A DNA stretch of 64,000 bases, taken from the IMG/VR virus record IMGVR_UViG_3300045988_167652; one strand, written 5' to 3'. This document shows positions 1 to 64,000 of this stretch, one piece after another (the stretch's first letter is position 1; every line of letters starts with the position of its first letter). The stretch comes from a virus. A program made the position numbers and the translations under genes. The notes beneath the pieces are model-generated. The model was not told the origin of the DNA and did not search any database. It saw only the letters and a program-made list of their open reading frames with translations.

Positions 1-1
1 T

Positions 2-41661: not shown

Positions 41662-41666
41662 AGTTA

Positions 41667-43278: not shown

Positions 43279-43302
43279 AAAATCTATTATAATTGTTCAA
43301 CA

Positions 43303-46449: not shown

Positions 46450-46451
46450 AT

Positions 46452-47612: not shown

Positions 47613-47630
47613 CTTTTTTTTGTTTAATGT

Positions 47631-49240: not shown

Positions 49241-49272
49241 ACTGAATAATTAAAATTATTTATGTTTTTATA

Positions 49273-50220: not shown

Positions 50221-50245
50221 ATTATTAATATTTATGTATGATTAA

Positions 50246-50626: not shown

Positions 50627-50665
50627 GTTTTATATATTTAAATATGAATAAATGATTATACAGTT

Positions 50666-51376
50666 TTATTTTGCTATTTCTTCAGTTTCTTCTTCTTCTC
50701 CATCATAATATCTATTAAGAGAATCAAATACTAATTGTAAGTCATTAGGAATATAATCTTCTTTAAATACTCCCATAGGACTTTTGGCAGGAACAATAAT
50801 ACCATCTATAAGTACTTCATGAGTAGCAAATAAATGCTCTCTTTCTCCTTTACTTCCATGTTTAATAAATGAATAAAGAAGTGTTGAAGTAAGTTCTATA
50901 GGATTAAATTGTTCTTCCACTAATTTACCTACTGTTTTTACTTTCTTTTTTACAATAGTATTATCGGATATTACATCATCATCATGAAGCATAATAGCAC
51001 AATTTAAATCAGGTTTTGATGTTGCAATAGCATCAGTAACCATCTTAAAATGTAATGCTATTTCTGTGAATTTAGTAAATCCTGTTTCTTTAGCTCTTTT
51101 AGCAAATTCATCTACCATAATATACCTCATATCATCAATGATAAGATTCTTTATAGAATCATTAGCACTTGCCCACTCAATAATTTTAATTACATCAGAG
51201 TAGTTACTTGTACTAAATACATTTACTTTTTCTTTGTAATTTTTTCTACTTCCACCAAATGGTAAATCCTTATTTTTTACAGATTTTACCACCACTGTTT
51301 CTTTAGGATTTAAGGTTCTGATAGAAGAACTTTTACCAGAACCTGTATTACCTAAAACTATTACTAAATGTCCCAT
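50666..51376 (-). CDS. P-loop ATPase, RecA-like/Sak4 (AAA_24)-type
   Basis: The Walker A motif VIVLGNTGSGKSSS sits at the extreme N-terminus, and the Walker B-like motif is LIIDDM. Size and context fit phage recombination ATPases. Confidence 0.55.
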   Translation of the reverse strand: MGHLVIVLGNTGSGKSSSIRTLNPKETVVVKSVKNKDLPFGGSRKNYKEKVNVFSTSNYSDVIKIIEWASANDSIKNLIIDDMRYIMVDEFAKRAKETGFTKFTEIALHFKMVTDAIATSKPDLNCAIMLHDDDVISDNTIVKKKVKTVGKLVEEQFNPIELTSTLLYSFIKHGSKGEREHLFATHEVLIDGIIVPAKSPMGVFKEDYIPNDLQLVFDSLNRYYDGEEEETEEIAK

Positions 51377-51751
51377 TCAATTTTTATTAATTTTGTTTTT
51401 ATATTTGTCTTTATGTTCTTTTAAAGAGGTTAAGAAATCATACATTCCTTTTTGATTGTTCTTTAATGTGTTTATATCAGAAACTATTTTATTTCTTTCT
51501 TTTGCAAATATTTTTATTAGTTCTTCATTTGATTTATTAATTTTACTTTGTGATTTATCATATTCTATAAAATAATTCATCAATTTTACAAGGGTCTTTT
51601 GAAATGATTCAAGTTGTTCATTCAGATTATCTACTTTAATATTTAGTTCTTTATATTTGGTAGTCTGTTGTTGTCTATACAAAACAAAACTTAAAGTATG
51701 AATAATAGAATAAATAGATAATAATAATGTAATTGTAAATAATAAAGTCAT
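51377..51751 (-). CDS. Small membrane-anchored coiled-coil protein (124 aa)
   Basis: An N-terminal hydrophobic helix (LLFTITLLLSIYSIIHTLSFVLY) is followed by heptad-like sequence. Confidence 0.55.
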   Translation of the reverse strand: MTLLFTITLLLSIYSIIHTLSFVLYRQQQTTKYKELNIKVDNLNEQLESFQKTLVKLMNYFIEYDKSQSKINKSNEELIKIFAKERNKIVSDINTLKNNQKGMYDFLTSLKEHKDKYKNKINKN

Positions 51752-51771
51752 ATCATTAATAATTTTAGTGA

Positions 51772-52152
51772 TTAAATATTTTGTTTGTTTCTGTATTTTG
51801 TTTTATACATGTCATTATATAATTGCTGATATTTCTTACGAATAGTTTTTATATCGGTTCTTTGATGTTTTATAATGTTTTCAAGTGATTCAATTCTTAC
51901 TTTAAGATTGTGATTTTCTTTTTTAAATTCATCATTTAATATATTATGATTACTTATAATACTTAAAGTAGTAGAACTTAAATCTTCTTCTACATTACTG
52001 AATGCTTCTTCAATTTTTGAAAACTCTTTTTCATTACTTGATATTTTATTTTCAAGAACTTCAAATCTTTTCTTCATATTTATATAATTTATGCTTACTA
52101 AGATTAAAAGTAATACAGTTAAAATGAACAATACAATTATAATTATTTCCAT
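51772..52152 (-). CDS. Small membrane-anchored coiled-coil protein (126 aa)
   Basis: An N-terminal hydrophobic helix (IIIIVLFILTVLLLILVSI) is followed by heptad-like sequence. The architecture matches the neighbour 51377..51751. Confidence 0.55.
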   Translation of the reverse strand: MEIIIIVLFILTVLLLILVSINYINMKKRFEVLENKISSNEKEFSKIEEAFSNVEEDLSSTTLSIISNHNILNDEFKKENHNLKVRIESLENIIKHQRTDIKTIRKKYQQLYNDMYKTKYRNKQNI

Positions 52153-53357
52153 AAATTTTTAATAGTTCTGAATAATTTATTATTATTGTTTTTATTTATA
52201 ATTTCATCTGATATATTACAAAGTATAAGACTTTCTTTATTCTTTTTTATTAGTCCATATACTTCATTTAATTTCTTTTCATCATGAGGTAAAGGTAACT
52301 CTTGAAAATAAGATACTGCACCATCAAAATATAATGGACATACTCCATTACCTTCACCATCTCTTGAAGCGCATATTTCTAAAAATCTCAAGTTATCCTT
52401 TAACTTTGTTACATTATATCCCATATATTCAGGTAATTCATGTTTATAAGGAGAAAATATTCCAAGCATAATATTACAATCAAACTGTGTACTTTTATTC
52501 CAGTTTAATCCATCTCCTGAAGGTCTTATTTTTCCTGCTTTATAATTCTCTACCCCTTCATGAGTAGCTACTTGCTGTTGAATATTTACAATACTCATGT
52601 TGTATCTATCCCTTAATTCTACTCCATAATCATAAGATATTTTACCTATAGATTCCATCTTATTCATCCCTGATTCATTAGAAGTAAGACCAACATGATC
52701 CCATATAACTAATCTGTAAAGAAAAGGATTATGAGGTTCATATCTGTCAAATACTTCAACTTCTTTAGGGATACCTGTATCTCTATCTTTTACTATAACT
52801 TTCTTTTTATATATCTTACCTTCATCCACTGTTTTCGATAGAGCATGTTTATACATTCCTGTAGGATTTCTTGTAGAATTAAATTCCACATGTTCTTCAA
52901 AATATTTACATAATATCTTAAATTTAGTAGATTTAATTAAATCAAGAACATCTTTACTAAGAGGTTTAGTTTCTTTAGTAGATTGTAAGTCCATAGGAGA
53001 TACTCTTATAGTATATCCTGATAATATATAAAGAATATGACTTAACCATCTTATGTATATCTTTCTTGGAGTTTCTTCCCAAGCAAAATATAATATACGA
53101 TAATCAATTTCTTTTTGTGGATTATTAAAACAATATAATAAAGGATGATAGATAAATAAGTAAGAAGATAATTGAGTTTTAGCAGATTTAGTAGCTCCAG
53201 TAACTATATAATAAGTTCCTTGAGTCACTCCTACAAAATCATTTGAAAACCTATAAAAAGGAGAGGGAATACAATTGATTCCCCCCTTTATTATAGTTTC
53301 CCTTCTATGTTCAAGATAATTAATAGTATCTTGATACATAGTTAAAGTATCACTCAT
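52143..53357 (-). CDS. DnaB-like (SF4/RecA-fold) replicative helicase
   Basis: The Walker A-like motif is IVTGATKSAKTQ, the Walker B-like motif is LVIWDHVG, and the arrangement is DnaB-like. Confidence 0.6.
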   Translation of the reverse strand: MSDTLTMYQDTINYLEHRRETIIKGGINCIPSPFYRFSNDFVGVTQGTYYIVTGATKSAKTQLSSYLFIYHPLLYCFNNPQKEIDYRILYFAWEETPRKIYIRWLSHILYILSGYTIRVSPMDLQSTKETKPLSKDVLDLIKSTKFKILCKYFEEHVEFNSTRNPTGMYKHALSKTVDEGKIYKKKVIVKDRDTGIPKEVEVFDRYEPHNPFLYRLVIWDHVGLTSNESGMNKMESIGKISYDYGVELRDRYNMSIVNIQQQVATHEGVENYKAGKIRPSGDGLNWNKSTQFDCNIMLGIFSPYKHELPEYMGYNVTKLKDNLRFLEICASRDGEGNGVCPLYFDGAVSYFQELPLPHDEKKLNEVYGLIKKNKESLILCNISDEIINKNNNNKLFRTIKNLWK

Positions 53358-53676
53358 CTTTTACATCAAAGCCAAATTCTTTCATAACTTCTTTAGCTCT
53401 GTTAATATCTTTTTCAAGACTTTTAAGGTTGTCTATTACTTCCAGATACTCGATAAGATTGAAAGGATAAGTTGTTTTAACTGTTTCTAAGTACACTTTT
53501 GTTTTTTGAAGTTCTTTTTTTGCCGACAAAATCTTCATCTGTAATTGCAGATTGGTATCTTCCACCAAAAAACTCACTTCTTTTTGTAAGTCTGTAACAG
53601 GATTTAGTAATGTTTTTTCTTTGTAATTGATTCTTACTTCTTCCACTTTCTTCTGATTTAAATTCTTGTCTTCCAT
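53350..53676 (-). CDS. Hypothetical coiled-coil protein (108 aa)
   Basis: The translation is protein-like. It overlaps the 3' 200 nt of the upstream 750-codon ORF in another frame. Confidence 0.55.
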   Translation of the reverse strand: MEDKNLNQKKVEEVRINYKEKTLLNPVTDLQKEVSFLVEDTNLQLQMKILSAKKELQKTKVYLETVKTTYPFNLIEYLEVIDNLKSLEKDINRAKEVMKEFGFDVKDE

Positions 53677-55729
53677 CTTCTTTTGAATTAATTTTGTTAT
53701 TTATTATTTTAAAATCTTCTTTCTTAAAATCTTTATAGTCTTCTATTAAACAATATTCATTAGTATTACCGATATATTTATAATGAATAGAGAAATCTCC
53801 TGATTTTATATTACTCGTGATATATAAAGTTGTGTTATATAATTTAAAATCCTCTTTTCCTAAACTATAAATAATACTTCTACTTTCTCCCAAGACACCT
53901 TTATTTTTTATTATTTTATTCCAAAAATATTCACCTTCAATACTGTTTTTTATATTCAAAATTTCAGTTACTTCTCTAAGTACATAATCCGATAACCATA
54001 ATAGTTTGTTACAACGGTAGTAGTTAGCTTTATATAAAAGAGCTACATACGGATTGATATTGTTTTTTATACATAAATTCTTTTCTATTTCTGTTAAAGT
54101 AACTTCAAAATTATTTTGGGGATAGATAAGTTTATATTCAATCCCTTTAATACATTTAGGATTATTAAGTTTTTCTATAGATATTAATTTTTCTTCCCAT
54201 AATTCTTTTCCTGTTTTATTGTTTTTATTATACTTTGATTTAAAATATTCAGGTAATTCGTATTTGGAATTATATATCATTACATCTGTAAAGTACATTA
54301 AATCTTCTTCAAGTATTTGTTTTCCTGCATTAATATAATAGGCTTCATAATCATTTTTAAGCATTATGTTTCTAAAAAACGTTTTATTGTAGCAATAATA
54401 TTCTATTAAATCTTTTATAGTATTATTTAATACAAATAAATTAAAGTTATCTCTTTTATCTGTATTAGATAACCATAAAGAATTAATAAAACTTATGATT
54501 ACACTAATAGGATATTCATAAAATTTCTCATATATGTCAGCGGATATTTTATAATCCGAATCTTTAATAATTTTCTCTTTGTACCACTTATTAGTATAAT
54601 ATAAATATTCTTCTATTTTACTTGAATTTATAACTACTTCATTATCAAATTTAATACGTATATTATAATTTGTATCTTTAAATTTTTCGATAATTATGTT
54701 TTCCACTATTAATACTTCATCTTTTAAAGTAAAAAATTTATAGCCTATATTAAAGTAATTATTTTTAGAACATGCTTTTAATTTACATAAAATATCTTTT
54801 TCTTCTTCGGACATTGATTTTAAATATGAAATAAATCCGTATTTAATATCACTTATAAAAAATAATTTTCCTTGCTTTATGATATTATATTTATGTATAA
54901 GTGTGAATAGAGGACTTCTATCACATTTAATACTTTCTTCAATTTCTTTTTCAGTTAAATATATTCTGTTTGTTTTTACTCCTATATGTTCTTTATATAC
55001 ATAATCTTTTATTATTTTATTATTTTCTATTATTTCAGGAAGATTATTTGTAATAATAATTTCTTTTATGAATGTATTATTTTTCTCTTCTGAAGTTTTC
55101 TTTAATATGAAACTTTCTGCTTTTTTATTTATTTTTCCATAAATAATATTATCATATATGTTTTCTATATTAGATTTAATTTCTAATATTGAATTTATAC
55201 ATGTTTTATCTTCATAACTAATATCTAATTTTGATAAAATATCTACATGATTTTTTATATTTTCGGTTGTTACTTGTATGTCATATTTATAATATAGATA
55301 TAATATATTCCATATATCAGTTATTCCAATTTTTATTTTTTTAAGGGCTTCTATACTTATAAAGAAATTTTTATCAGGTAATTCATATATTATTCCAGAT
55401 TCAAAGAAAGTATTATTATTTACCTCTCCAAAATCTTTTATGATATTCAAGTTTTTATTTGGTTCTTCCATTATTTTGATCCATAATGAAGCTTTATTGG
55501 GAAATGCATAATGTGATTTACCACTTGTATACCATGAAAATCCTCTCTCAGCTTTGTTTGCACATTTATTTTTTTGAAATATTTCTATGTTAAATATATT
55601 ATCTTGTTTCATAGTTTCAATAGCCATTTGAGCTACTACTTCTATGGGAAAGTTTTTTAATATTTCCTTATTATAATCTTCAGGAATAACTGCATATTTA
55701 TTTTCATATAATACTATATATTTCTTCAT
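53477..55729 (-). CDS. Large hypothetical protein (up to 750 aa; 3' end uncertain)
   Basis: Long intact ORF. Its last ~65 codons are low-complexity Lys/Arg/Ser-rich and overlap 53350..53676. Confidence 0.6.
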   Translation of the reverse strand: MKKYIVLYENKYAVIPEDYNKEILKNFPIEVVAQMAIETMKQDNIFNIEIFQKNKCANKAERGFSWYTSGKSHYAFPNKASLWIKIMEEPNKNLNIIKDFGEVNNNTFFESGIIYELPDKNFFISIEALKKIKIGITDIWNILYLYYKYDIQVTTENIKNHVDILSKLDISYEDKTCINSILEIKSNIENIYDNIIYGKINKKAESFILKKTSEEKNNTFIKEIIITNNLPEIIENNKIIKDYVYKEHIGVKTNRIYLTEKEIEESIKCDRSPLFTLIHKYNIIKQGKLFFISDIKYGFISYLKSMSEEEKDILCKLKACSKNNYFNIGYKFFTLKDEVLIVENIIIEKFKDTNYNIRIKFDNEVVINSSKIEEYLYYTNKWYKEKIIKDSDYKISADIYEKFYEYPISVIISFINSLWLSNTDKRDNFNLFVLNNTIKDLIEYYCYNKTFFRNIMLKNDYEAYYINAGKQILEEDLMYFTDVMIYNSKYELPEYFKSKYNKNNKTGKELWEEKLISIEKLNNPKCIKGIEYKLIYPQNNFEVTLTEIEKNLCIKNNINPYVALLYKANYYRCNKLLWLSDYVLREVTEILNIKNSIEGEYFWNKIIKNKGVLGESRSIIYSLGKEDFKLYNTTLYITSNIKSGDFSIHYKYIGNTNEYCLIEDYKDFKKEDFKIINNKINSKEDGRQEFKSEESGRSKNQLQRKNITKSCYRLTKRSEFFGGRYQSAITDEDFVGKKRTSKNKSVLRNS

Positions 55730-55872
55730 AGTTGTTTTATTTTTATAAATGTTAATTACTTTGTTTGTATTGTAGAGGTTGGTTCATAATTATTTTATTG
55801 TTTATATTGTAATACATGAAACAACTATTTACCAACCCCCCTCCCCCCCCAATTTTACCTTTAATCATCTTC

Positions 55873-56037
55873 CTATTCTAATATAATAGATGTTCCTTTG
55901 AAATTTTTATATTTATTCATCAGGTTTTTCCTTATGTTATCTACTTTAATAGTAAATTCTATACAGGAAAGAATAAAATAAAGTAATCCTACTATAAACA
56001 GAAATACAATTAAACCTTTAATGTAAAATACTTCCAT
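55873..56037 (-). CDS. Possible small membrane protein (54 aa to TAG; 58 aa to TAA at 55861 if TAG is read through)
   Basis: ATG at 56037 and a hydrophobic segment GLIVFLFIVGLLYFILS. It is below the ORF-track size cut-off and is the only minus-strand candidate ORF I saw that ends in TAG. Confidence 0.3.
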   Translation of the reverse strand: MEVFYIKGLIVFLFIVGLLYFILSCIEFTIKVDNIRKNLMNKYKNFKGTSIILE

Positions 56038-56112
56038 AGGCAATTAATATGAATAATTAGTTTGACAAATATATAATGTATAATTTATTTATAGTGTTTA
56101 TACAGGTATAAA

Positions 56113-56688
56113 TTATCTTAATTCACTATTTGAAAAGTTAAATGATTGTTCTTTATTATTTTTATTTTCTATGAAAGTAAGGAGGTCTGAAGAATTTATT
56201 ATCTCTCCATTCTTATTTTCATTTTTTGATATGAAATACTTTAATGTTCTCATATAACTGTAATTTCCATTAAAAGATTGTACATATCTTTTAGCAGCAT
56301 TTAATATATCATCTTTAGTTATATGAGGATTTTTAGCTATAAACATTTCAAGTTTCTTTCTTACTTCTGAAGAATTTCCTCTCCAGTAAATATTAGTTCC
56401 TTCTTTTTTACCTTCAGGAAAGATGTTTTGAAGGGATTTTATAAAAGATAAATCTATTTTTTCTATCTTATTATGAGTATTACTTTTTGATAGTCCTTTA
56501 ACTATGTTTAAACATAAAGGATTTAAACTTCCGTCAGATAGAATATAGTTTTTTAGTTTCATAACTCTTAATATATAATCAAGAGTTGTATTATTTTTTT
56601 CTGCTATTTCTGAAGTTATTAATATAAGTGCTTCTGCTAATGATAGATTATATTTCTCTAACATAGCTTCATTAATAAAAATATTCAT
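56113..56688 (-). CDS. Hypothetical protein (191 aa)
   Basis: Intact ORF with a TAA stop; no secure motif. Confidence 0.6.
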   Translation of the reverse strand: MNIFINEAMLEKYNLSLAEALILITSEIAEKNNTTLDYILRVMKLKNYILSDGSLNPLCLNIVKGLSKSNTHNKIEKIDLSFIKSLQNIFPEGKKEGTNIYWRGNSSEVRKKLEMFIAKNPHITKDDILNAAKRYVQSFNGNYSYMRTLKYFISKNENKNGEIINSSDLLTFIENKNNKEQSFNFSNSELR

Positions 56689-56716
56689 ATATATGTATTT
56701 TTAATTGTAATTTAAT

Positions 56717-57106
56717 ATTTATGGTTTCATAATAGTGATTAGTTTAAGACTAACAAAGAATTAAAATTATTATGACAAGATAGTGAGATTAATCTTAGTA
56801 TAAATTTAAAATAAAGACTGTAATTTCATTTTATATTAAAGGAAAAAAGAAATTATATGGCTTATGGGGGTTAGTGAGCTACCTTTGTATATAAAAGTAT
56901 TCTTACAGTCTTTATAAGAAAACCTTTCTATAAAACACTTTGTTTATTTATATCTAAAATTCATAAGAATGCTGTGACCAAACGAGTATAAAAATGAATT
57001 TACGGATAAAATAAAGTTCAGTGATTATAGAAAGGTTATGATGAAAAAACAAAGTAGTTAGTAGGGAAAAAATCAAACTATGAAAAAATACTATGAAACC
57101 ATAAAT
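56717..57106. ncRNA. Candidate large structured RNA (or cruciform-rich replication element): nested perfect inverted repeats
   Basis: H1 pairs 56717-56731 with 57092-57106 (15 bp). H3 pairs 56811-56823 with 56903-56915 (13 bp) and continues inward as 56829-56836/56889-56896 (8 bp) and 56837-56842/56882-56887. H4 pairs 56921-56932 with 57026-57037 (12 bp). H5 pairs 56957-56964 with 56994-57001 (8 bp). All helices are nested without crossing, and the tract has no ORF. Confidence 0.4.
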
Positions 57107-57152
57107 AAACAAATATAAAAACCTCTACTAACATACTTTGTTTTATATTTTG

Positions 57153-57520
57153 TGGAGCTGGAAGGATTCAAACCTTCGTCCATAAGAAGTTAAATTTACT
57201 TTTTTACATGCTTAGTTTTATTTGTTTAGTATTTTAATTTGAACTATAATAAAACAAATTCATTCAAATATTACCTCTTCTTTATCACTTATTATTTTGA
57301 GGAAATGTATAAGCTATCTGTTTTAGTAATAATCTTAGATATTAAACAGATTAATTTATCTAAGATTTGCTTTACTTCTTTATGTTTTATAAAGTTTCAA
57401 GCTGCTAAGTTTAGTTTATAATCGAACTTTATTTTTAATAGTTTTATTAAAGTGTTACTATAAAAACACTGCATGATTAATAAATCTTTTCTTGTCTTAT
57501 GTCAAACATCTTTCAGCCCC
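57153..57520 (-). ncRNA. ssrA: tmRNA (transfer-messenger RNA), complete one-piece form
   Basis: The minus-strand RNA starts GGGGCTGAAAGATGTTTGAC and ends GGACGAAGGTTTGAATCCTTCCAGCTCCA. It has a 7-bp acceptor stem with G3:U70, a T-arm GAAGG/TTTGAAT/CCTTC, and no D or anticodon arm. The internal frame reads ...FDYKLNLAA followed by TGA (57397-57399). Downstream hairpins include ATCTTAGAT/ATCTAAGAT. CCA is not encoded. Confidence 0.85.
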
Positions 57521-57656
57521 TTTTATTTATTAATTTATTAAAAGATAGAAAAAGTTTTGCAGGATAATAAACATATAAATCAAATTTAAAACCTTTATCA
57601 TGAAAAAAAACAAATCAGTTAAGTTTATCCTATACTTTCTTTTACTACCTTTATTT

Positions 57657-58883
57657 TTATTGTTTTTTCTTTATGTATTCTTCTAAAGTAATTTCTTTTA
57701 CATATTTATTATCCACTTCTTTTATAGCTTTATTTAAATAGTCTTCATCCGAAGTGTTTTTATAGTAAAAGATAAATATTTTAGGTGATTCATGCCTTAA
57801 AAGCCTACCTAACTTTTGTATGAACATTCCTGTAGTACCATCAAGTTGTGTGATGATTCCTATAGGAGTATTAACTAAATTAGTTCCTTCTCTAAGCATT
57901 TTCACTGTAAAGATACGATTAATTTTGTGATTATTAAAATCACTAAGCATATCTTTATTTTTTGATTTACTATGTAAAGCATATTTACTTCCACCAAGCT
58001 CATTACATTGTTCGATATTAGTGGTAAATGCTATTATTCTTTCATCTTCATTAAAGGATTTTATTAATTTCTTTACATGTCTTGTTTTTGTTTTACCTAA
58101 GAAATTCTTTCTTCTTAATCCTTCTCTTAAAGATAATAGTGGAGAAATTCTTCCTTTTTTTGATAATTCTGAATAAGCAGATACTCTTTGATCAATATAA
58201 TCGTAAATATTTTTTACTGAATCTTCTACTATTAAAGTGGGCTTATCTTTTATGTTTTTATTTTTTTCTTTACTAATATATCTTTGTAAAGAATTAAACC
58301 TCTTCAAACATACTTCCTCCCCCCCTTTACCCTTCCTTACTTCTATTTTATCCATTAAAGTGATGGATAAAGTAAGTGGAATAAGTATTATCTCAGGAGT
58401 AGGTAAAATATTATTTTTAATGGCTTCTTTAAGTCCATATTTCATGAATTTTAAATTGTTTATAAAGCTTCTTAAAACATATTTCAAATCCCAAGATATT
58501 GTGGCTGATAACCCAATAAATCTTGTATTAGTATTGTTAGATAATATCTTTTTTAAATGTCTTATTCTTTCAGCTGATAAGTTATGTACTTCATCACAAA
58601 TAACTGTATCATATTTATTGTTTACTACCTTTTTTAGTGAAGCATAGCAAAGAATAAATATGTTTTCAGTAGAATAATTCCATTTATGAATTTCTTCTAA
58701 CCATCCATTAATGTGTGCTCTTTCTGATACTACTATAAGAGTTTTAGGATTTATACGTTTATTTCCTAAAGCACAATCTAGGCTTATCTTTGTTTTTCCT
58801 ACTCCTGTAGCAAATTCAAGTATTAAGTTATCATTGTTATTAAAGTGTTTTATAATTGTAGTGTTTAATTTCTGTCTATCCAT
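57657..58883 (-). CDS. SF2 DEAD/DEAH-box-type helicase
   Basis: Motif I is ATGVGKT, motif II is CDEVHN (DExH), motif III is LSAT and motif VI is QKLGRLLR. Confidence 0.8.
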   Translation of the reverse strand: MDRQKLNTTIIKHFNNNDNLILEFATGVGKTKISLDCALGNKRINPKTLIVVSERAHINGWLEEIHKWNYSTENIFILCYASLKKVVNNKYDTVICDEVHNLSAERIRHLKKILSNNTNTRFIGLSATISWDLKYVLRSFINNLKFMKYGLKEAIKNNILPTPEIILIPLTLSITLMDKIEVRKGKGGEEVCLKRFNSLQRYISKEKNKNIKDKPTLIVEDSVKNIYDYIDQRVSAYSELSKKGRISPLLSLREGLRRKNFLGKTKTRHVKKLIKSFNEDERIIAFTTNIEQCNELGGSKYALHSKSKNKDMLSDFNNHKINRIFTVKMLREGTNLVNTPIGIITQLDGTTGMFIQKLGRLLRHESPKIFIFYYKNTSDEDYLNKAIKEVDNKYVKEITLEEYIKKKQ

Positions 58884-58886
58884 ATC

Positions 58887-59072
58887 TTATTTAAATAATT
58901 CATGTTCTTCTATAGTTAGAATAATTCCTTGTTTTGATAAATATGGTTTATTAAGGAATATTTCATATTTCTTTTTATCCGTATTATTAGATATAACAGT
59001 TTTAGCTGATTCTTGTGTAATTGAACAATATTCTATTTTCCCTTTATCTGTCTTAATAATGTAGATTTTCAT
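58887..59072 (-). CDS. Small hypothetical protein (61 aa)
   Basis: Intact ORF tightly packed upstream of the helicase gene. Confidence 0.45.
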   Translation of the reverse strand: MKIYIIKTDKGKIEYCSITQESAKTVISNNTDKKKYEIFLNKPYLSKQGIILTIEEHELFK

Positions 59073-59105
59073 AATAGTATTTATTTAAAATTGTTTTTAA
59101 TGATA

Positions 59106-59294
59106 TTATACTAATTCGTTAATAGGAAATTCTTTAATTATAATATCATAATCTATTGTTTCATAGTAGACGTTTATTTCAATCTCTTCTACTATATCAT
59201 ATAACGATTTAATAGCATCAATAGCTTTTTTCTTTTTACCAAAACATCCTAATATTTCTTTGTTTTCATTAAGAATCACATAAATAAAATTCAT
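59106..59294 (-). CDS. Small hypothetical protein (62 aa)
   Basis: Intact ORF with a TAA stop. Confidence 0.45.
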   Translation of the reverse strand: MNFIYVILNENKEILGCFGKKKKAIDAIKSLYDIVEEIEINVYYETIDYDIIIKEFPINELV

Positions 59295-59402
59295 AATATC
59301 TTTTTTAAATGTAAATAGTTATGTAAAGCTAATTAAAAATATGGTTTTAACACAATAGTTATTAGATAATAAGATTTTCCAAACTACTAACAATATCTAA
59401 CA

Positions 59403-59723
59403 TTAAAGAACTATTTCATTTGTGTAGTATAACTTTCCTGTATATCCTCTTTCTTTGATTTCTTCTAATAGTTGTCTATTAGTAAAAGTAGCTAATTCAG
59501 GATTTTTATATACTTTATGTAGTACTCTCTTTTCTTCTTTTTGTTTTTGTACTATTGTTGTATTACTTTGTTTGGATAATTTTTTTTGGTATCTTTCTCT
59601 TGACAATCTTTTATCACATTCTTTACAATAAGAATGTCTACCAAATTTGTTTTTACCTTTAGAAAAACTACTTTCAGGTAGTTCTTGCTTACATTTTAAA
59701 CAGGTTATTAATCTTTCTTCCAT
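59403..59723 (-). CDS. Zinc-ribbon protein (106 aa)
   Basis: CLKC...(20 aa)...CKEC forms a four-Cys ribbon, followed by a basic region. Confidence 0.55.
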   Translation of the reverse strand: MEERLITCLKCKQELPESSFSKGKNKFGRHSYCKECDKRLSRERYQKKLSKQSNTTIVQKQKEEKRVLHKVYKNPELATFTNRQLLEEIKERGYTGKLYYTNEIVL

Positions 59724-59764
59724 GATTTTTATTTTTAAATTTTTATAGTATTGTACTCACTTTT

Positions 59765-60520
59765 TTATTCATTGTGTTGAGCTGTACTTTTTAAATTTGA
59801 TATTATATGATTCTCATAAATAATAACTGATTTATTAAAGTTTTTACAGTTTGTTGTTTTTTCTGCATGCACTACAGATTTATTATAAGCATTTACAGAA
59901 GCTTTTTCTTCTGCTATAATATAAGAATAATGATAACTATTAACTTCTGCACAATCTTTTGCAAATACCTTTGAAAATTCATATGCTGTTATTTTTGAAT
60001 TATGATTGGCATATATAGTTGAACTATGTTTACATATTACTTCTGAATTATTTGATGCTTCACATTTACTTGCTTTACTACATTCTATTAAAGTATTATC
60101 GTGTGCAAATACTATACTGTAATCAGTACTAAATACTTTAACATTATCATAAGCCCATATGGTAGAATGGTCATTAGCGTAAACTGTACAATTATCAAAA
60201 GCATTTATTATACTATTATTTTCACTTATTATAATAGTATTTCCTAAACAATATGCTTCTCCGTCTTTTACATGGTGTTTATCTTTTATGAATATATTTT
60301 CTTTTTCTAATTCTTCTATAGTAAAATTATCTAATAGAAATTTTATAATATTTTTATTTTTACTTGACAGTATTCCTAAATCATCTTTTAAAGCCTTTAA
60401 TAGGTCTGATAAGTTTTTATATGTTATTTTTGTATTATAAGGTATATTATATTTAATATATTCATTCTTTAACACTGTTTCTAAGTGTTTAATTCTATTT
60501 TCTTTTATTTCTTTTTCCAC
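59765..60520 (-). CDS. Octapeptide-repeat (predicted beta-solenoid) protein, paralog A
   Basis: About 18 consecutive 8-residue units with consensus (D/N)xSxVxAx, for example NNSIINAF DNCTVYAN DHSTIWAY DNVKVFST DYSIVFAH. Confidence 0.7.
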   Translation of the reverse strand: MEKEIKENRIKHLETVLKNEYIKYNIPYNTKITYKNLSDLLKALKDDLGILSSKNKNIIKFLLDNFTIEELEKENIFIKDKHHVKDGEAYCLGNTIIISENNSIINAFDNCTVYANDHSTIWAYDNVKVFSTDYSIVFAHDNTLIECSKASKCEASNNSEVICKHSSTIYANHNSKITAYEFSKVFAKDCAEVNSYHYSYIIAEEKASVNAYNKSVVHAEKTTNCKNFNKSVIIYENHIISNLKSTAQHNE

Positions 60521-60527
60521 GTTTGAT

Positions 60528-61451
60528 TTATTTTTTAATAGTTATTTTTATCTTTTCTCCATTAATTTCTGTATCAATATATTCTTGATTATTTATTTTC
60601 GTTGTTTTATTCGTATATATTGTATTATGTTGAAATAGTACTGAATTATTTTTTAATGTATAATTAGGTAATATTTCATCTTTTACATAAATTACTGAAT
60701 GATCATTCGCTATTATAGTTACGTCTCTGTCTGTTTTTGCTCTTGCATAATCAAATAATTCTATAATCGATTTATCTGATGCAAATATTGTAGAATAATT
60801 CATTGCTGTTACTTTACAATTGTCTTTTGTATATACTATCGAATTATTTCCAGCTCTTATAAATGAATTATCATGTCCTATAATTTCCGCTCTATGCATC
60901 GCACTTATATCTGATGTATCATAGGAGTAACATGTAGAATAATTCCAACATTTTACTATTGAATTGTCTCTTGCAGTTACTATAGTATTTTCCCAAGCCA
61001 GTATTAATGAATTATTATAAGCAGATACCATACAATCATCCATTGCTTCTACTATTGATTTATCAAATGCTTTTATATTTGAGTTTCCTGTAGCTTCTAC
61101 TCGTGTATTTTCAAAACAACACACTTTTTTATTATGTATTTTATGACTACCTTCTAATAATATTTCTCTTTTATGTAATTCTTCTACTGAGTACAATTCT
61201 TTAAGCAGGTTTATAATATTAATGTCTTTTTTATATATTAAAGCTATATATCTTACTATATAATCAAGAAGTTGAGATGTATTTTTAATCCTTCTTTCTT
61301 CTTTTTCATCTATTCTTAATGCTTTTATTTCTCTTATAAAGCTTAATAATATTTGTTTCTGTTCTTTAAATGTTCTCTTTTTCATATGTTTTATTTTTAT
61401 TAGTTGTAAATAGTATTTTAAATTAAAAAGTGGACAATATCTAATAATCAC
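60528..61451 (-). CDS. Octapeptide-repeat (predicted beta-solenoid) protein, paralog B
   Basis: About 18 units, for example GNSNIKAF DKSIVEAM DDCMVSAY NNSLILAW ENTIVTAR DNSIVKCW. The N-terminal region resembles paralog A. An alternative and perhaps better start is ATG 61385 (MKKRTFKEQ). Confidence 0.7.
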   Translation of the reverse strand: MIIRYCPLFNLKYYLQLIKIKHMKKRTFKEQKQILLSFIREIKALRIDEKEERRIKNTSQLLDYIVRYIALIYKKDINIINLLKELYSVEELHKREILLEGSHKIHNKKVCCFENTRVEATGNSNIKAFDKSIVEAMDDCMVSAYNNSLILAWENTIVTARDNSIVKCWNYSTCYSYDTSDISAMHRAEIIGHDNSFIRAGNNSIVYTKDNCKVTAMNYSTIFASDKSIIELFDYARAKTDRDVTIIANDHSVIYVKDEILPNYTLKNNSVLFQHNTIYTNKTTKINNQEYIDTEINGEKIKITIKK

Positions 61452-61495
61452 TATCGGATATTGTTCTATTGTTATGATAAACTACGAACTATAAG

Positions 61496-61570
61496 TGTTC
61501 CTTATTAGACTTGAACTAATACTCTTTTCCTTATGAGGGAATTGCTCTAACCTACTTGAGCTAAGGGAAC
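61496..61570 (-). tRNA. tRNA with CAU anticodon (elongator Met or Ile2 type)
   Basis: A 75-nt cloverleaf on the minus strand. Acceptor is GTTCCCT/AAGGAAC (one C-A mismatch); D-arm is GCTC-AAGTAGGTTA-GAGC; anticodon arm is ATTCC-CTCATAA-GGAAA; T-arm is ATTAG-TTCAAGT-CTAAT; discriminator is A. It lacks the three G-C pairs of initiator anticodon stems. Confidence 0.85.
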
Positions 61571-61759
61571 TATTAAATCTTATGTTTAATTGTTGTGTTT
61601 TATTTAAATGTTAATACTCTGTATTGCTCTACTATTATAAGTAAAGCAATCAAGATTAAAGCATAAAGGAATGCTTTTAATATGAATATAGTTACACTTT
61701 TTATAGTGTATTTCTTTTCTTTTTTTATTGTAAAATCAATTCCTTTAGCTATATTGTTC

Positions 61760-61942
61760 TTATAAATAATTTTCATTTTTCTTTGCTTGTTTGAATTGTT
61801 TTATTTTATTTCTTAAACCTTTTTCAAATGATTTTAATTCTTCATTTGATTGATTGTTTTCAATTATTTCGGTTGTGATAAAGTGGTTTACTATTACTCT
61901 TTCTCCTCTACTATTCTTTCTTGTAAATATTCTTTTTCTCAT
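61760..61942 (-). CDS. Small basic hypothetical protein (60 aa)
   Basis: Intact ORF with a TAA stop. Confidence 0.45.
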   Translation of the reverse strand: MRKRIFTRKNSRGERVIVNHFITTEIIENNQSNEELKSFEKGLRNKIKQFKQAKKNENYL

Positions 61943-62116
61943 AATTTTATATTTTACTTTTATTTGCTTTTTATATTTCTTTGTCAGTAATTATTTGTGG
62001 TGAAGGGTTGGATGGGTAAGGGGGGTAAGTTGTTAGTTGCTATTTTGTACATTAATTTGATAGTAAATTAAAATAAATAATAGAGAGCTTTTACACTCTC
62101 TATTATCTTTAATGGA

Positions 62117-62467
62117 TTACCATTCCTCCATTTCTTCCCAATTCCTGTCTTTACAAATAATGAAGGTTTCTTTAGGATTTCTAAGTTCTCCCGTTACTTC
62201 ATCCTTATCTGAAAGGATGCAGTGGAGTACTACCAACTCCCCTTCTAATTCTCTTAGCTTTTCAATTGAGTTGATTTCTTTTTTGTGTTTCTCTCCCACT
62301 GAGACTTCAGTCCCAGCGATATTGAAAAGCACAAAAGAATCTTGCAACCCTTCGTTGTTTGTGTAGGTAATTTCTGACTTACCCACTTTTCTACTGCCTG
62401 TTTTTGCAAGCTGGTTGTTCAAAAATTCTACAAATGACCATCTTTGAATGATTTCGCTGTGCTTCAT
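62117..62467 (-). CDS. Hypothetical protein (116 aa) in a less AT-rich segment
   Basis: Intact ORF. It is visibly richer in G/C than the rest of the window. Confidence 0.55.
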   Translation of the reverse strand: MKHSEIIQRWSFVEFLNNQLAKTGSRKVGKSEITYTNNEGLQDSFVLFNIAGTEVSVGEKHKKEINSIEKLRELEGELVVLHCILSDKDEVTGELRNPKETFIICKDRNWEEMEEW

Positions 62468-62746
62468 TTTTTTTGTTTTGCATTTAGTGCTGTGAATTAA
62501 GGTTACTGTTCCACCATCAAGTCAAATAATGTTTTAGCAGGAGAGTACTGTTCTTCGTCTCTAACATTATTAGAAGCCCTATCTAAAGATTATAATGATA
62601 GGATATATGCTTATTTATACTCTGTGCATATTAACAAGAGTTGTATTTTAGTAGTTAAATAATTTATTTTAGTAATTATTCTTTGTTATAATAATTTATT
62701 GGATGTAATCAATAATTCTCTATATTCAATTTTAAATTATAGAAAT

Positions 62747-62992
62747 TTAATAACATCCATAAAAATCTTTGGGAGAATTTGTTTTTACTCCCAAAGATTT
62801 AAGTTCTTTGTTACTTAGGGTCGTGTGAAGAAGATACCCTTTAACTGTTACCCTCAAATCTGGACAGCAAGTACATGCTGCCGAAGAATTATATATGAAT
62901 TTTTTTACATGTTTTGTTACATATGCAGAGTGATCTCTGCAATTAACAACTGAGAGTATGTCTATTGTTTTCAAGAATCTTATATTTTCCAT
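62747..62992 (-). CDS. Hypothetical Cys-rich small protein (81 aa)
   Basis: Intact ORF whose 3' end is overlapped by a strong hairpin (62763-62800). Confidence 0.4.
   Translation of the reverse strand: MENIRFLKTIDILSVVNCRDHSAYVTKHVKKFIYNSSAACTCCPDLRVTVKGYLLHTTLSNKELKSLGVKTNSPKDFYGCY
62759..62800 (-). terminator. Rho-independent terminator (minus strand)
   Basis: 13-bp perfect stem AAATCTTTGGGAG (62763-62775) / CTCCCAAAGATTT (62788-62800). On the minus strand the tail is T-rich. Confidence 0.5.
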
Positions 62993-63262
62993 ATGACTTC
63001 ATATAAATTGTTTATTTTTTAGATGATTTATCCCGATTAAATTCAATTAATCTCTTCATTGAAAAGATATAGAATTTTAATTCTATTGTCTTCATTTTGT
63101 TTGAATATTATTTTGTTTATATTGACCTTTTAACTCATAGGATTTTCTCACTATGAAACTTATAATTTTCTATAAATATAGATTATTATAAGAGGTTTCA
63201 ACTTTTATTTAATCCTCGTTTAAGTCGTTCATTAGAATATTTTCGAGGTTCATGAATAATTT

Positions 63263-63306
63263 AAAAAAATAATAGTAATAAGTTAGCTACTTTTATTACT
63301 ATTATT
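63263..63306 (-). terminator. Hairpin terminator downstream of 63700..63975 (minus strand)
   Basis: 14-bp stem AATAATAGTAATAA (63268-63281) / TTATTACTATTATT (63293-63306). It is preceded on the + strand by an A-run, which gives a T-tail on the minus strand. A second 11-bp hairpin follows at 63310-63338. Confidence 0.5.
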
Positions 63307-63699
63307 CCCATAAATAATAATGATTAGTTATTATTTATAGTGGAGCTATAGGTTTTGTTATAATTGCTCTTACTTTACTATTATAACTACATAATTGAAT
63401 AGTATATTATCCAATTAATCCTAAATGTAATCTTTTTAACTATAATATCATTGATATACTAATATTATAATTATTCTTCGGACATCAAAGACTTTTATTT
63501 AGTCCCTAATAGTACTTATGAATACTATTATTCTTCATTTTCATTACTAAATGCTATCTTAGAAAGTGTACTTTTTTCTAAGTGAATCTAATAATTTATA
63601 GAAGATTTAATTCCTAAATTGGTATGATTAAATGATTATCTCTGCGTAAATATTGTACACTATTAAGTGTTCAACACCTGAAGAAAAAGCTGGAAGAGG

Positions 63700-63975
63700 T
63701 TATAACTCCCAGCTAATCACTGCATTATTAACTCTCTGCACTCTAACATAAGTTCTTCCGTTGGTAAGACTTACTGTAGAGTTTACAATAAGTTCATCAA
63801 CCTTACAGTTAAGGCAGTTTGATGGAATAAATGCAGTAAACTCAGTTAAAACTAAAACATAAGTTTTACTTTCCACATTTAACTGAGCATTTTTAAAATT
63901 CGCTTTTATAGTCTTTAAAACATCAGCATGTGGATGGCTGATAGTCTTATTAGACTTGTTAACTTTATTATCCAT
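63700..63975 (-). CDS. Hypothetical protein (91 aa)
   Basis: Intact ORF with a TAA stop. Its start codon abuts a 9-bp tandem repeat. Confidence 0.5.
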   Translation of the reverse strand: MDNKVNKSNKTISHPHADVLKTIKANFKNAQLNVESKTYVLVLTEFTAFIPSNCLNCKVDELIVNSTVSLTNGRTYVRVQRVNNAVISWEL

Positions 63976-64000
63976 AGTTTATATAGTTTATATAGTTTAT
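63974..64000. repeat. Tandem 9-bp repeat ATAGTTTAT x3 (truncated by window end)
   Basis: Three perfect copies at 63974-63982, 63983-63991 and 63992-64000, immediately upstream (minus-strand sense) of the ATG of 63700..63975. Confidence 0.8.

What the first reader, a model, noticed from the sequence alone, without database searches (positions are those of the whole stretch)
57153..57520. Phage-encoded complete tmRNA in a TAG-recoding genome
**Seen in sequence.**
- The 368-nt minus-strand RNA has the canonical tmRNA ends: 5' GGGGCUGA...UUUGAC and 3' GGACG + T-arm + CAGCUCCA.
- It carries the G3:U70 alanine identity pair.
- An internal tag frame ends ...YKLNLAA and stops at TGA, not TAG.
- Several helices follow the tag.

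**Established knowledge.** tmRNA rescues ribosomes stalled on non-stop mRNAs. tmRNA genes have been noted in some large phages.

**Inference.**
- Once TAG is suppressed, host mRNAs that end in TAG will be read through, which increases non-stop complexes.
- A phage tmRNA could keep ribosomes recycling, or could retarget the tagged products.
- The resume codon cannot be fixed by eye, so the exact tag length is unknown.
Basis: partly seen in the sequence, partly recalled or inferred. Interest (0 to 1): 0.8.

Follow-up and report, generated by a model that had tools for sequence, protein, structure and literature searches.

The report
AT-rich tmRNA gene in crAss-like phage
A gut crAss-like phage that reads the TAG stop codon as glutamine carries its own complete, conserved ribosome-rescue RNA (tmRNA), but related phages with the normal genetic code carry tmRNAs too, so it is a new example of a known kind of phage gene, not a recoding-specific invention.

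Summary
Window 57153-57520 (minus strand) encodes a complete one-piece tmRNA. It has a 7-bp acceptor stem with G3:U70, a T-arm, helix 2, PK1, a tag frame ending ...YKLNLAA-UGA, helix 5 and PK2-PK4 (96/96 canonical pairs). Default ARAGORN misses it. Rfam RF00023 aligns it end to end at 46.7 bits (cut-off 47; E 3e-17); the low score reflects 24% GC.

The genome is a ~91.6 kb Steigviridae-like crAss-like phage with TAG read as Gln. The late strand holds up to 76 in-frame TAGs per ORF, the early strand none, and a tRNA(CUA) lies just outside the window. The tmRNA sits in the TAG-free early block and is the most conserved feature of its neighbourhood in six genome copies. No SmpB is encoded, and no sampled bacterial genome has a matching 3' end.

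The proposed link to recoding is not supported. A second, unrelated tmRNA type occurs in 15 other crAss-like loci, including standard-code cr106_1, where RefSeq already annotates it.

Unusual points are a U-for-C T-loop change with a matching D-loop change, and a non-canonical resume-codon context, so the tag length is unresolved.

Verdict: a real and probably functional new member of a known kind, of moderate interest.

The parts
57153..57520 (-). tmRNA (ssrA) gene, 368 nt from G1 to discriminator A; 24% GC
   Evidence: Rfam RF00023 full-length match, 46.7 bits, E 3.4e-17. ARAGORN at relaxed threshold gives the same ends. The structure was verified.
57514..57520 (-). Acceptor stem, 5' strand GGGGCUG (G3 of the G3:U70 alanine identity pair)
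   Evidence: 7/7 pairs with 57154-57160; invariant in 5 copies.
57153..57177 (-). T-arm (GAAGG-UUUGAAU-CCUUC), acceptor 3' strand CAGCUCC and discriminator A; followed by CAA, so CCA is not encoded
   Evidence: The T-loop has U at the C56-equivalent position. The D-loop has GA instead of GG, as in three other U-variant tmRNAs.
57471..57501 (-). Helix 2, 5' strands (H2a 57495-57501, H2b/c 57479-57487, H2d 57471-57475)
   Evidence: These pair with 57181-57187, 57192-57200 and 57207-57211, 21/21 pairs. Three one-sided substitutions in relatives keep pairing.
57181..57211 (-). Helix 2, 3' strands including the conserved AAGCAUGUA element
57438..57470 (-). Pseudoknot PK1 (stems 6 bp and 5 bp)
   Evidence: invariant in all copies.
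57397..57426 (-). Tag reading frame UUC GAU UAU AAA CUA AAC UUA GCA GCU UGA (FDYKLNLAA*). The start is uncertain: candidate resume codons are AUA at 57432, UUC at 57426, GAU at 57423 and UUA at 57408. The stop UGA is at 57397-57399.
   Evidence: One search gives the frames. One search compares the upstream context with 40 other tmRNAs. One relative has Leu->Ser (..NSAA).
57369..57402 (-). Helix 5 (outer 4 bp plus a 6-bp hairpin), overlapping the end of the tag and its stop codon
57316..57366 (-). Pseudoknot PK2 (9 bp and 8 bp)
57274..57314 (-). Pseudoknot PK3 (6 bp and 4 bp)
57220..57269 (-). Pseudoknot PK4 (7 bp and 8 bp)
57521..57570 (-). Conserved block immediately upstream of G1 (precursor leader or promoter; function not established)
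   Evidence: Conserved in 5 copies while the rest of the intergenic region varies. It is unique in the window.
57657..58883 (-). Upstream neighbour: SNF2/DEAD-type helicase
   Evidence: PHROG and Pfam hits. In cr128_1 the homologue abuts the next gene, so the tmRNA region is an insertion.
56113..56688 (-). Downstream neighbour: ORF of 191 aa, no family match
30447..64000 (-). Early/replication gene block without any in-frame TAG; it contains the tmRNA
1..30376 (+). Late/structural gene block with 1-76 in-frame TAG codons per ORF (TAG->Gln)

Best explanation
This is a genuine phage-borne ssrA gene that most likely works as an ordinary tmRNA using host factors.

Shown:
- The RNA has every structural element of a one-piece tmRNA.
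- It is under purifying selection.
- It lies on the coding strand of the early, TAG-free gene block of a TAG->Gln crAss-like phage.
- The phage encodes no SmpB.

Inferred:
- The gene is transcribed with the early or middle genes.
- It is trimmed by host RNase P at G1 and by 3' processing plus CCA addition.
- Host AlaRS charges it with alanine through G3:U70.
- It is delivered with host SmpB and EF-Tu to ribosomes stalled at the ends of broken or stop-less mRNAs.
- The ribosome then switches to the internal frame, adds a short peptide ending ...LAA, and terminates at UGA. That stop works in both the standard and the phage's code.

The benefit to the phage would be extra ribosome-rescue capacity during infection, when mRNA damage and readthrough rise. 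This is a general translation-support role, like the tRNA sets of related phages, not a role tied specifically to recoding.
For: - Full-length RF00023 alignment, E 3.4e-17; a sister copy passes the gathering score.
- 96/96 canonical pairs in 15 helices, in the canonical order. 99% of cells are paired, against 40-48% in slid registers.
- The T-loop C->U change is matched by a D-loop GG->GA change. The same holds in three independent U-variant tmRNAs, which suggests the tertiary contact is preserved.
- Lowest divergence in its neighbourhood across five other genome copies. The tmRNA has 1.4% mismatch and 3.8% variable sites. Coding sequences show 2.4-5.7% mismatch (third positions 4.4-8.5%). Intergenic DNA reaches 12.6%, and the nearby tRNA-Met has 20% variable sites.
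- Present in all six genome copies that cover the region.
- The 3' end matches none of 185,579 species genomes, with either U or C in the T-loop. No integrase family was seen. It is therefore not an att fragment.
- The tag ends in LAA, like 29 of 47 comparator tags.
- tmRNA genes recur in related crAss-like phages and in huge phages (PMC7162821).
Against: - There is no expression or aminoacylation data.
- There are no compensatory double substitutions, because all copies are at least 96% identical.
- In this AT-rich sequence, 29% of shuffles give at least one comparable pseudoknot.
- The resume-codon context is non-canonical. The 40 comparators have U(-5) A(-4) A/G(-3) N Y(-1) followed by a G-initial codon. 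The phage's best-spaced site is UAAAG|UUC, with a purine at -1 and a Phe codon.
- One genome has Leu->Ser at the third-last tag residue, so the degron may not be tightly constrained.
- No phage SmpB exists. Compatibility of this divergent tRNA-like domain with the unidentified host's SmpB is assumed.
Confidence: 0.7

Rival explanations
1. Recoding-specific adaptation. Once the phage's tRNA(CUA) reads TAG as Gln, ribosomes run through host genes that end in TAG and reach mRNA 3' ends. The phage tmRNA was acquired to clear these non-stop complexes and keep ribosomes available for late genes.
For: - In E. coli, suppressor tRNAs create trans-translation substrates (Ueda 2002, cited in PMC3985003).
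- tmRNA acts at unassigned UAG codons (PMC6207430).
- In this genome the tmRNA, the tRNA(CUA) and heavy TAG use co-occur.
- The tag stops at UGA, not UAG.
- This lineage carries its own tmRNA type at a lineage-specific insertion site.
Against: - A different tmRNA type occurs in 15 related crAss-like loci. These include cr106_1, which uses the standard code and has an intact, RefSeq-annotated tmRNA.
- The tmRNA lies in the early block, about 9 kb from the suppressor tRNA and on the other strand.
- The sample is a single recoded lineage.
- UGA or UAA stops are the norm for tmRNAs anyway: 40 of 47 comparators.
Confidence: 0.15
2. Modified or antagonistic tmRNA. The RNA enters stalled ribosomes but resumes at an unusual codon or inefficiently. 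It would then either compete with the host tmRNA (a decoy for SmpB) or mark rescued products with a phage-specific tag that has a different fate.
For: - The resume context is non-canonical, and no candidate resume codon starts with G.
- The tag body (..DYKLN..) is unlike the GENNYALAA-type tags seen in Bacteroidota-like comparators.
- There is a Leu->Ser polymorphism in the degron.
- The phage encodes no SmpB.
Against: - The tag still ends in LAA and is followed by a normal helix 5 and three pseudoknots.
- The U-A-A core of the resume signal is present at the normal 11-nt distance from PK1.
- A pure decoy would not need a conserved coding segment and four pseudoknots.
Confidence: 0.08
3. Non-functional relic or integration-site copy. 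The sequence is a decaying host ssrA picked up by the phage, or an attP-type duplicate of a host ssrA end.
For: It scores just under the Rfam gathering threshold and is missed by default ARAGORN. The base composition is extreme.
Against: - The full gene is present with all helices intact.
- It is the most conserved feature locally.
- Composition has shifted fully to the phage's 24-25% GC while pairing is retained, which requires long residence under selection.
- There is no match to any of 185,579 species genomes at the 3' end.
- No integrase was detected.
Confidence: 0.04

Closest known systems
Bacterial one-piece tmRNA (ssrA; Rfam RF00023)
   Same: Same architecture in the same order. It has a tRNA-like domain with G3:U70, GAC/GGAC junctions, helix 2, PK1, a short tag frame ending LAA plus a stop, helix 5 and PK2-PK4.
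   Different: - 24% GC, against 35-62% in 40 comparators.
- T-loop UUUGAAU with D-loop GA.
- No encoded CCA.
- The upstream resume context lacks the pyrimidine at -1 and a G-initial codon.
- It is encoded by a phage that has no SmpB.
tmRNA of Steigviridae crAss-like phages ('type 2': cr106_1 NC_055871.1 29657-29960, annotated 'transfer-messenger RNA, SsrA'; also L162, L182, L200 and others)
   Same: It is a phage-borne tmRNA in the same phage group. It lies on the early strand upstream of or within the replication module.
   Different: - No detectable specific sequence relationship: the nhmmer type-2 profile does not hit the window.
- Type 2 has acceptor GGGGCAU/AUGCUCC, GAU/AAGAC junctions, a canonical UAACU|G resume site and tags such as GNTSYKVAA and DNTYRVAA with a UAA stop.
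- Type 2 has 33-41% GC, passes the Rfam cut-off and default ARAGORN, and sits next to tRNA genes.
- At least one carrier of type 2 uses the standard code.
tmRNAs of huge phages (Al-Shayeb et al. 2020, PMC7162821), and, from memory, cluster C mycobacteriophages such as Bxz1
   Same: Phage-encoded tmRNA interpreted as support for, or manipulation of, host translation.
   Different: Huge phages often also carry SmpB, release factors and many other translation genes. This 91.6 kb phage has only the tmRNA, two tRNA-Met genes and tRNA(CUA).
ssrA 3'-end duplicates at attP sites of temperate phages and islands
   Same: They share the T-arm and acceptor 3' sequence motif.
   Different: Here the whole gene is present, no integrase was found, and no sampled bacterial genome has the same 3' end.

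Membership tests
tmRNA (RF00023, one-piece) | 7-bp acceptor stem with the G3:U70 alanine identity pair and an unpaired discriminator | tested here: met
   GGGGCUG/CAGCUCC gives 7/7 pairs, with G3:U365 and discriminator A368. All are invariant in 5 copies.
tmRNA (RF00023, one-piece) | T-arm (5 bp, 7-nt loop) plus a D-loop analogue forming the tRNA-like elbow; no anticodon arm | tested here: met
   The T-arm is GAAGG-UUUGAAU-CCUUC. The C56-equivalent is U and the D-loop GG is GA. All four U-variant tmRNAs examined show the same pairing of changes. Interpreting this as a preserved G19:C56-type contact is an inference.
tmRNA (RF00023, one-piece) | Long helix 2 closing the molecule, with GAC/GGAC junctions and the conserved CAUGC/GCAUG helix 2d | tested here: met
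   H2a has 7 bp, H2b/c 9 bp and H2d 5 bp. Three one-sided changes keep pairing.
tmRNA (RF00023, one-piece) | PK1 immediately upstream of the tag frame | tested here: met
   H-type pseudoknot at nt 51-83 with 6 and 5 bp. It lies 11 nt before UUC95.
tmRNA (RF00023, one-piece) | Internal tag reading frame with a defined resume codon (upstream U-A-A/G-N-Y, G-initial codon), ending in hydrophobic ..AA plus a stop | tested here: inconclusive
   The frame ends NLAA-UGA. The U-A-A core is present at 90-92 with correct spacing. However, -1 is G or A and the codon is UUC. GAU98 lacks the U-A core. UAAAC|UUA113 would give only LAA.
tmRNA (RF00023, one-piece) | Helix 5 and pseudoknots PK2-PK4 after the tag | tested here: met
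   All are present with perfect stems. Statistical support is modest in AT-rich sequence: the region has 11 stems of at least 7 bp against 4.2 in shuffles, and 29% of shuffles give at least one pseudoknot.
tmRNA (RF00023, one-piece) | Covariance-model score at or above Rfam's gathering score (47 bits) | tested here: not met
   The score is 46.7 bits, 0.3 below the cut-off, with a 64-bit composition-bias term and E 3.4e-17. The sister copy L007 scores 48.5 and passes. I treat this as a threshold effect of 24% GC, not as evidence against membership.
tmRNA (RF00023, one-piece) | Works with SmpB, is charged with alanine, and tags nascent chains | not testable with these tools
   No SmpB is encoded anywhere in the 91.6 kb genome. 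Host SmpB is assumed.
crAss-like 'type 2' tmRNA (as in cr106_1) | Sequence similarity to the GGGGCAU...AAGAC...AUGCUCCA type | tested here: not met
   The nhmmer profile of L162/L182/L200 finds 15 loci but not the window at E<1e-3. The acceptor, junctions and tag all differ.
attP-type ssrA fragment | Only the 3' part of ssrA, identical to a host gene, next to an integrase | tested here: not met
   The full gene is present. There are 0 matches in 185,579 species genomes. No integrase family was recorded.

The most novel reading that the evidence does not exclude
The tmRNA is part of the phage's code-switch machinery. It would be expressed before or alongside the tRNA(CUA). It would clear ribosomes that read through TAG-terminated host and early messages, or that stall at TAG while release factor and suppressor compete. 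It would do so with a phage-specific tag started at a non-G resume codon. This would make it a recoding-linked variant of trans-translation that this lineage acquired independently of the tmRNA found in its standard-code relatives.
Probability: 0.15. Interest if true: 0.7.

Novelty: new member of a known kind. Interest (0 to 1): 0.38.

Why it matters
There are three reasons.

1. It shows a blind spot. Standard phage annotation uses ARAGORN or Rfam at default thresholds and misses tmRNAs in very AT-rich genomes. Counts of phage tmRNAs, and any test of their association with recoding, are therefore biased.

2. The wider survey shows that tmRNA genes are a common accessory of Steigviridae crAss-like phages, some of the most abundant viruses of the human gut. 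The papers I could search on crAss-like or recoded phages do not discuss this. One copy is annotated in RefSeq, and one is mis-annotated as protein-coding in a cultured phage.

3. The cultured Bacteroides phage Kehishuvirus 'tikkala' carries a type-2 homologue, although its 3' end looks incomplete. This suggests that the question of what a lytic phage gains from its own tmRNA could become experimentally tractable in this group. This lineage adds a natural comparison between a recoded phage and its standard-code relatives.

Tried and rejected
- **Bacteroidota-type promoter.** TTTG-N17-23-TAnnTTTG occurs upstream at 57581-57614. It is not enriched (3 matches against 4.6 expected) and is broken in two relatives. 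I dropped it. The sigma-70 and terminator scans also gave nothing above chance.
- **Conserved upstream block as a recurrent phage promoter.** It is unique in the window.
- **Covariation.** All copies found are at least 96% identical. This held for two viral pattern scans, one metagenome scan and helicase-based locus searches. No compensatory changes were possible.
- **Donor assignment by pairwise similarity.** Identity to every comparator was 49-65% and was dominated by composition.
- **Donor or host by 3'-end pattern in 185,579 species genomes.** There were 0 hits with U or C in the T-loop.
- **blastn of the tmRNA against GenBank phages.** Only chance hits, all with E of 0.4 or higher.
- **Resume codon by position weight matrix.** No candidate scores well.
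- **ARAGORN at an 80% threshold as a survey tool.** It calls false tmRNAs inside coding regions.
- **My strict tRNA-like-domain finder.** It recovered 14/14 GGAC-type tmRNAs but missed the AAGAC-type crAss tmRNAs. I replaced it with default ARAGORN, Rfam and nhmmer.
- **cr128_1 as a standard-code carrier.** Its copy is followed by a group I intron and I could not find the 3' exon. I used cr106_1 instead.
- **Cross-tabulating tmRNA against suppressor tRNA in 60 loci.** This was uninformative, because the fetched early regions contain no suppressor tRNAs.
- **SmpB search.** It was negative everywhere.
Full report
**1. The observation**

Read on the minus strand, window 57520->57153 begins GGGGCUGAAAGAUGUUUGAC. 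It ends GGACGAAGGUUUGAAUCCUUCCAGCUCCA and is followed by CAA.

Tool results were mixed at default settings:
- Default ARAGORN finds no tmRNA, either in the window or in the local region.
- The Rfam scan of the whole window at gathering thresholds reports only a tRNA-Met at 61495-61570.
- A local Rfam search with an E-value threshold aligns RF00023 from model position 1 to 374 at 57150-57520. The score is 46.7 bits against a gathering score of 47, with E 3.4e-17 and a 64-bit composition-bias term.
- ARAGORN recovers the same ends (57152-57520) once its threshold is lowered to 80-85%. Its tag call is flagged 'not identified' and lies inside the pseudoknot region.

The near miss is therefore a consequence of 24% GC. 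A near-identical copy in another genome scores 48.5 bits and passes.

**2. Anatomy**

I numbered the RNA with nt 1 = 57520 and laid out the helices by hand. I then verified them by script.

| Element | Positions (RNA nt) |
|---|---|
| Acceptor stem | 1-7 / 361-367, with G3:U365 |
| T-arm | 344-348 / 356-360, loop UUUGAAU |
| H2a | 20-26 / 334-340 |
| H2b/c | 34-42 / 321-329 |
| H2d | 46-50 / 310-314 |
| PK1 | 51-56 / 65-70 and 60-64 / 79-83 |
| Tag frame | ...UUC95 GAU UAU AAA CUA AAC UUA GCA GCU UGA124 |
| H5 | 119-122 / 149-152 and 127-132 / 138-143 |
| PK2 | 155-163 / 181-189 and 170-177 / 198-205 |
| PK3 | 207-212 / 229-234 and 219-222 / 244-247 |
| PK4 | 252-258 / 278-284 and 262-269 / 294-301 |

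All 96 pairs are canonical. On the alignment of five copies, 99% of cells pair, against 40-48% when the 3' partners are slid by 1-3 columns.

One caution applies. In this AT-rich sequence, 29% of dinucleotide shuffles give at least one pseudoknot with two stems of at least 7 bp, although the real region has 11 such stems against 4.2 in shuffles. The strength of the case therefore rests on the end-to-end covariance-model alignment and the correct order of elements, not on any single pseudoknot.

**3. The genome**

- Reading TAG through raises the longest stop-to-stop ORF from 768 to 3,908 aa.
- The plus-strand block 1-30376 has 1-76 in-frame TAGs per ORF. The minus-strand block 30447-64000 has none in its real genes.
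- TAG positions align to Gln in 24% of cases in homologues from non-recoded relatives, against a background of 3.7%.
- No ORF of at least 100 aa ends in TAG: 42 end in TAA and 8 in TGA.
- Exact-protein look-ups place the window in ~91.6 kb contigs seen in at least 19 assemblies. These carry Crass_capsid, CrAss_Ring, crAss_MUZ and crAss_CARGO families.
- A tRNA with anticodon CUA, next to a second tRNA-Met, lies about 2.3 kb beyond window position 64000 at the head of the late-gene direction. It scores 68 bits as a tRNA.

The tmRNA lies in the TAG-free early/replication block on the coding strand. It sits between an SNF2/DEAD helicase (57657-58883) and an unassigned ORF (56113-56688). In the relative cr128_1 the homologous genes abut. 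The tmRNA and roughly 1 kb of non-coding DNA are therefore a lineage-specific insertion.

**4. Is it maintained?**

The same tmRNA is present in all five other genome copies that cover the region: two IMG/VR contigs and three ENA contigs.

| Region | Mismatch per base | Variable sites |
|---|---|---|
| tmRNA | 1.4% | 3.8% |
| Neighbouring coding sequences | 2.4-5.7% (third positions 4.4-8.5%) | 6-14% |
| Three of four intergenic regions | 7.6-12.6% | 18.5-29.4% |
| Nearby tRNA-Met | 6.6% | 20% |

Of 14 variable sites, seven fall in stems. Five of those keep pairing through G:U intermediates and two break a pair. That is consistent with the structure but is not significant by itself.

**5. Tertiary covariation**

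A separate argument comes from the tRNA-like domain. The T-loop has U where C56 is nearly universal, and the D-loop analogue has GA where the Rfam consensus has GG. Three unrelated metagenomic tmRNAs that share the U variant also have GA.

By analogy with the tRNA G19:C56 elbow pair (established tRNA knowledge), this looks like a compensated tertiary contact. That reading is my inference.

**6. Origin**

- The 3' T-arm/acceptor pattern has no match in one genome from each of 185,579 bacterial and archaeal species, whether the T-loop carries U or C.
- There is no meaningful blastn match in GenBank phages.
- Pairwise identity to 12 comparator tmRNAs, including three with the tag GENNYALAA, is 49-65% without a clear favourite. 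I recall GENNYALAA as the Bacteroidota type; this was not verified taxonomically here.
- No integrase family is recorded in the genome.

It is therefore neither an att fragment nor a recent host copy. Its composition has fully converged on that of the phage.

**7. Partner proteins**

No SmpB was found. The evidence is:
- Pfam scans of neighbours and small ORFs;
- precomputed Pfam calls for the rest of the genome;
- the last 8.4 kb of the genome, recovered from a relative's contig, which holds only large late-strand ORFs that look like tail-fibre proteins, plus small ORFs without Pfam matches.

The RNA must rely on host SmpB, EF-Tu, AlaRS, RNase P and the CCA-adding enzyme.

**8. The tag**

In 40 non-identical comparator tmRNAs the resume codon is preceded by U at -5 (37/40), A at -4 (39/40), A at -3 (36/40) and a pyrimidine at -1 (39/40). 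It starts with G in 39/40. Positions -6 to +1 are the known determinant read by SmpB (PMC3985003).

The phage RNA has no perfect site:

| Candidate | For | Against |
|---|---|---|
| UAAAG\|UUC95 | U-A-A core; 11 nt after PK1, which by my recollection is the usual spacing in E. coli (11-12 nt in the GENNYALAA comparators) | Purine at -1, polymorphic G/A; Phe codon |
| UAAAA\|AUA89 | Has the U-A-A core | Only 5 nt from PK1 |
| AGUUC\|GAU98 | G-initial codon | Lacks the U-A core |
| UAAAC\|UUA113 | Best match to the upstream motif | Would encode only LAA |

I favour UUC95, giving (A)FDYKLNLAA, but the point is unresolved.

Every option ends ...LAA-UGA. LAA is the commonest ending among comparators (29/47). 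UGA is a minority stop (3/47, against 37 UAA and 6 UAG). One genome has Leu->Ser, giving ..NSAA.

**9. Is tmRNA special to this recoded lineage? No.**

- Anchoring on the conserved Sak4 gene returned 54 crAss-like replication modules.
- Default ARAGORN and Rfam (67-75 bits) find tmRNAs in L162, L182 and L200.
- An nhmmer profile of these finds the same type in 15 loci.

This 'type 2' has a different acceptor (GGGGCAU/AUGCUCC) and GAU/AAGAC junctions. It has a canonical UAACU|G resume site, tags such as GNTSYKVAA and DNTYRVAA, a UAA stop and 33-41% GC. It usually sits beside tRNA genes.

RefSeq already annotates it as 'transfer-messenger RNA, SsrA' in cr106_1 (NC_055871.1 29657-29960). That phage's late genes are intact under the standard code.

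The window has no type-2 sequence. Its nearest GenBank relatives are cr128_1 and IAS virus, both Steigviridae/Asinivirinae, with 32-35% helicase identity. Neither is recoded.

So the window's tmRNA is a second, independent or very diverged tmRNA in a phage group where tmRNAs are common whatever the code.

**10. Literature**

- Phage tmRNAs, often with SmpB, are described for huge phages and were detected there with ARAGORN (PMC7162821).
- In full-text counts, 'tmRNA' does not occur in the crAss-like genome survey (PMC7886860), the stop-codon recoding survey (bioRxiv 10.1101/2021.08.26.457843) or the Crassvirales review (PMC10136315).
- All papers that mention both tmRNA and crAss-like phages or Crassvirales do so only in methods sections or reference lists.
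- Suppressor-driven readthrough as a source of tmRNA substrates is documented (Ueda 2002, via PMC3985003).
- tmRNA action at unassigned UAG codons is also documented (PMC6207430).

**11. Verdict**

The finding is real and the identification is right. The most likely function is ordinary trans-translation with host factors, giving the phage extra ribosome-rescue capacity (confidence 0.7).

The recoding-specific explanation remains possible for this lineage (about 0.15). It is not needed, and standard-code relatives with tmRNAs weaken it.

The gene is a new member of a known kind with some unusual details: extreme AT content, the compensated T-loop variant and the odd resume context. The practical lessons are that default tools miss such genes, and that crAss-like phages commonly carry tmRNAs. 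Interest is moderate.

Noticed in passing
L014 7618-7802 (minus strand of the locus; about 2.3 kb beyond window position 64000, on the window's plus strand): A tRNA with anticodon CUA (a TAG reader; ARAGORN labels it 'Pyl' by anticodon only; Rfam 68 bits) sits next to a second tRNA-Met at the head of the late-gene direction. Its T-stem (GAAGG/CCUUC) is identical to the tmRNA's T-stem.
   Followed up: partly
L208 9001-9304 (cr106_1 NC_055871.1 29657-29960); L162 1016-1399; L182 1697-2081; L200 1077-1467; 15 loci in all: A second, unrelated tmRNA type is widespread in Steigviridae crAss-like phages, usually next to tRNA genes. It is annotated as SsrA in RefSeq cr106_1, which uses the standard code. 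Its tags are GNTSYKVAA, GNTSYRVAA, GTSYKMAA and DNTYRVAA. Like the window's ..DYKLNLAA, they have Tyr followed by Lys or Arg, where the GENNYALAA-type tags have Tyr-Ala.
   Followed up: partly
L209 9001-9296 (Kehishuvirus sp. 'tikkala' OQ198717.1 about 87750-88041): In this cultured Bacteroides cellulosilyticus phage, the type-2 tmRNA homologue is annotated as two small hypothetical CDSs. Default ARAGORN does not call it, and its 3' acceptor strand was not seen. It may be truncated or interrupted.
   Followed up: partly
L143 7824-8490 (cr128_1 NC_055885.1): The type-2 tmRNA homologue runs into a group I intron (Rfam RF00028, 86 bits, 8221-8490). The intron starts in the T-arm region and overlaps an endonuclease CDS (8468-9028). 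I could not find the 3' exon. From memory, a group I intron in a tmRNA T-loop has a precedent in Clostridium botulinum.
   Followed up: partly
window 56689-57152: The 464-nt non-coding stretch downstream of the tmRNA is unusually conserved for intergenic DNA (2.7% mismatch against 7.6-12.6% elsewhere). It holds several inverted repeats: 56811-56823/56903-56915 (perfect, 13 nt), 56908-56933/57025-57050 and 56939-56951/57101-57113. It has no Rfam match. It could be a terminator or processing region, another RNA, or a replication element.
   Followed up: partly
L009 8726-9110, L012 342-742, L013 379-734: These environmental tmRNAs have T-loop UUUGAAU, and all have D-loop GA instead of GG. This looks like a recurrent compensated change of the D-loop/T-loop contact. 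The pattern occurs in none of 185,579 representative species genomes in this acceptor context.
   Followed up: partly
L035 2404-2752 (IMG/VR contig of 188 kb, locus GC 26%); L011 1209-1525: Other AT-rich viral or metagenomic contigs carry their own tmRNAs. L035 has the tag AKPYRLAA. L011 has a short 317-nt tmRNA directly next to two tRNA genes.
   Followed up: no
window 61495-61570: The tRNA-Met near the tmRNA is far less conserved than the tmRNA (20% variable sites). In one relative (L003) ARAGORN no longer calls it and its Rfam score drops to 36 bits, which suggests decay in part of the population.
   Followed up: no
window 30447-64000 (minus strand): The whole early block avoids TAG in frame, as sense codon and as stop. 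These genes therefore read the same under both codes. Precomputed Pfam calls in this block include ThiF (window 44378-45157), a Zeta_toxin/KTI12-like P-loop kinase, Thy1 and a glucosaminidase.
   Followed up: no
L161, L163, L172, L190: In several standard-code crAss-like loci, one ORF grows from about 446 to 724 aa (411 to 631 aa in L190) when a single TAG is read through. This could be a split gene, an intron or programmed readthrough. It is not genome-wide recoding.
   Followed up: no
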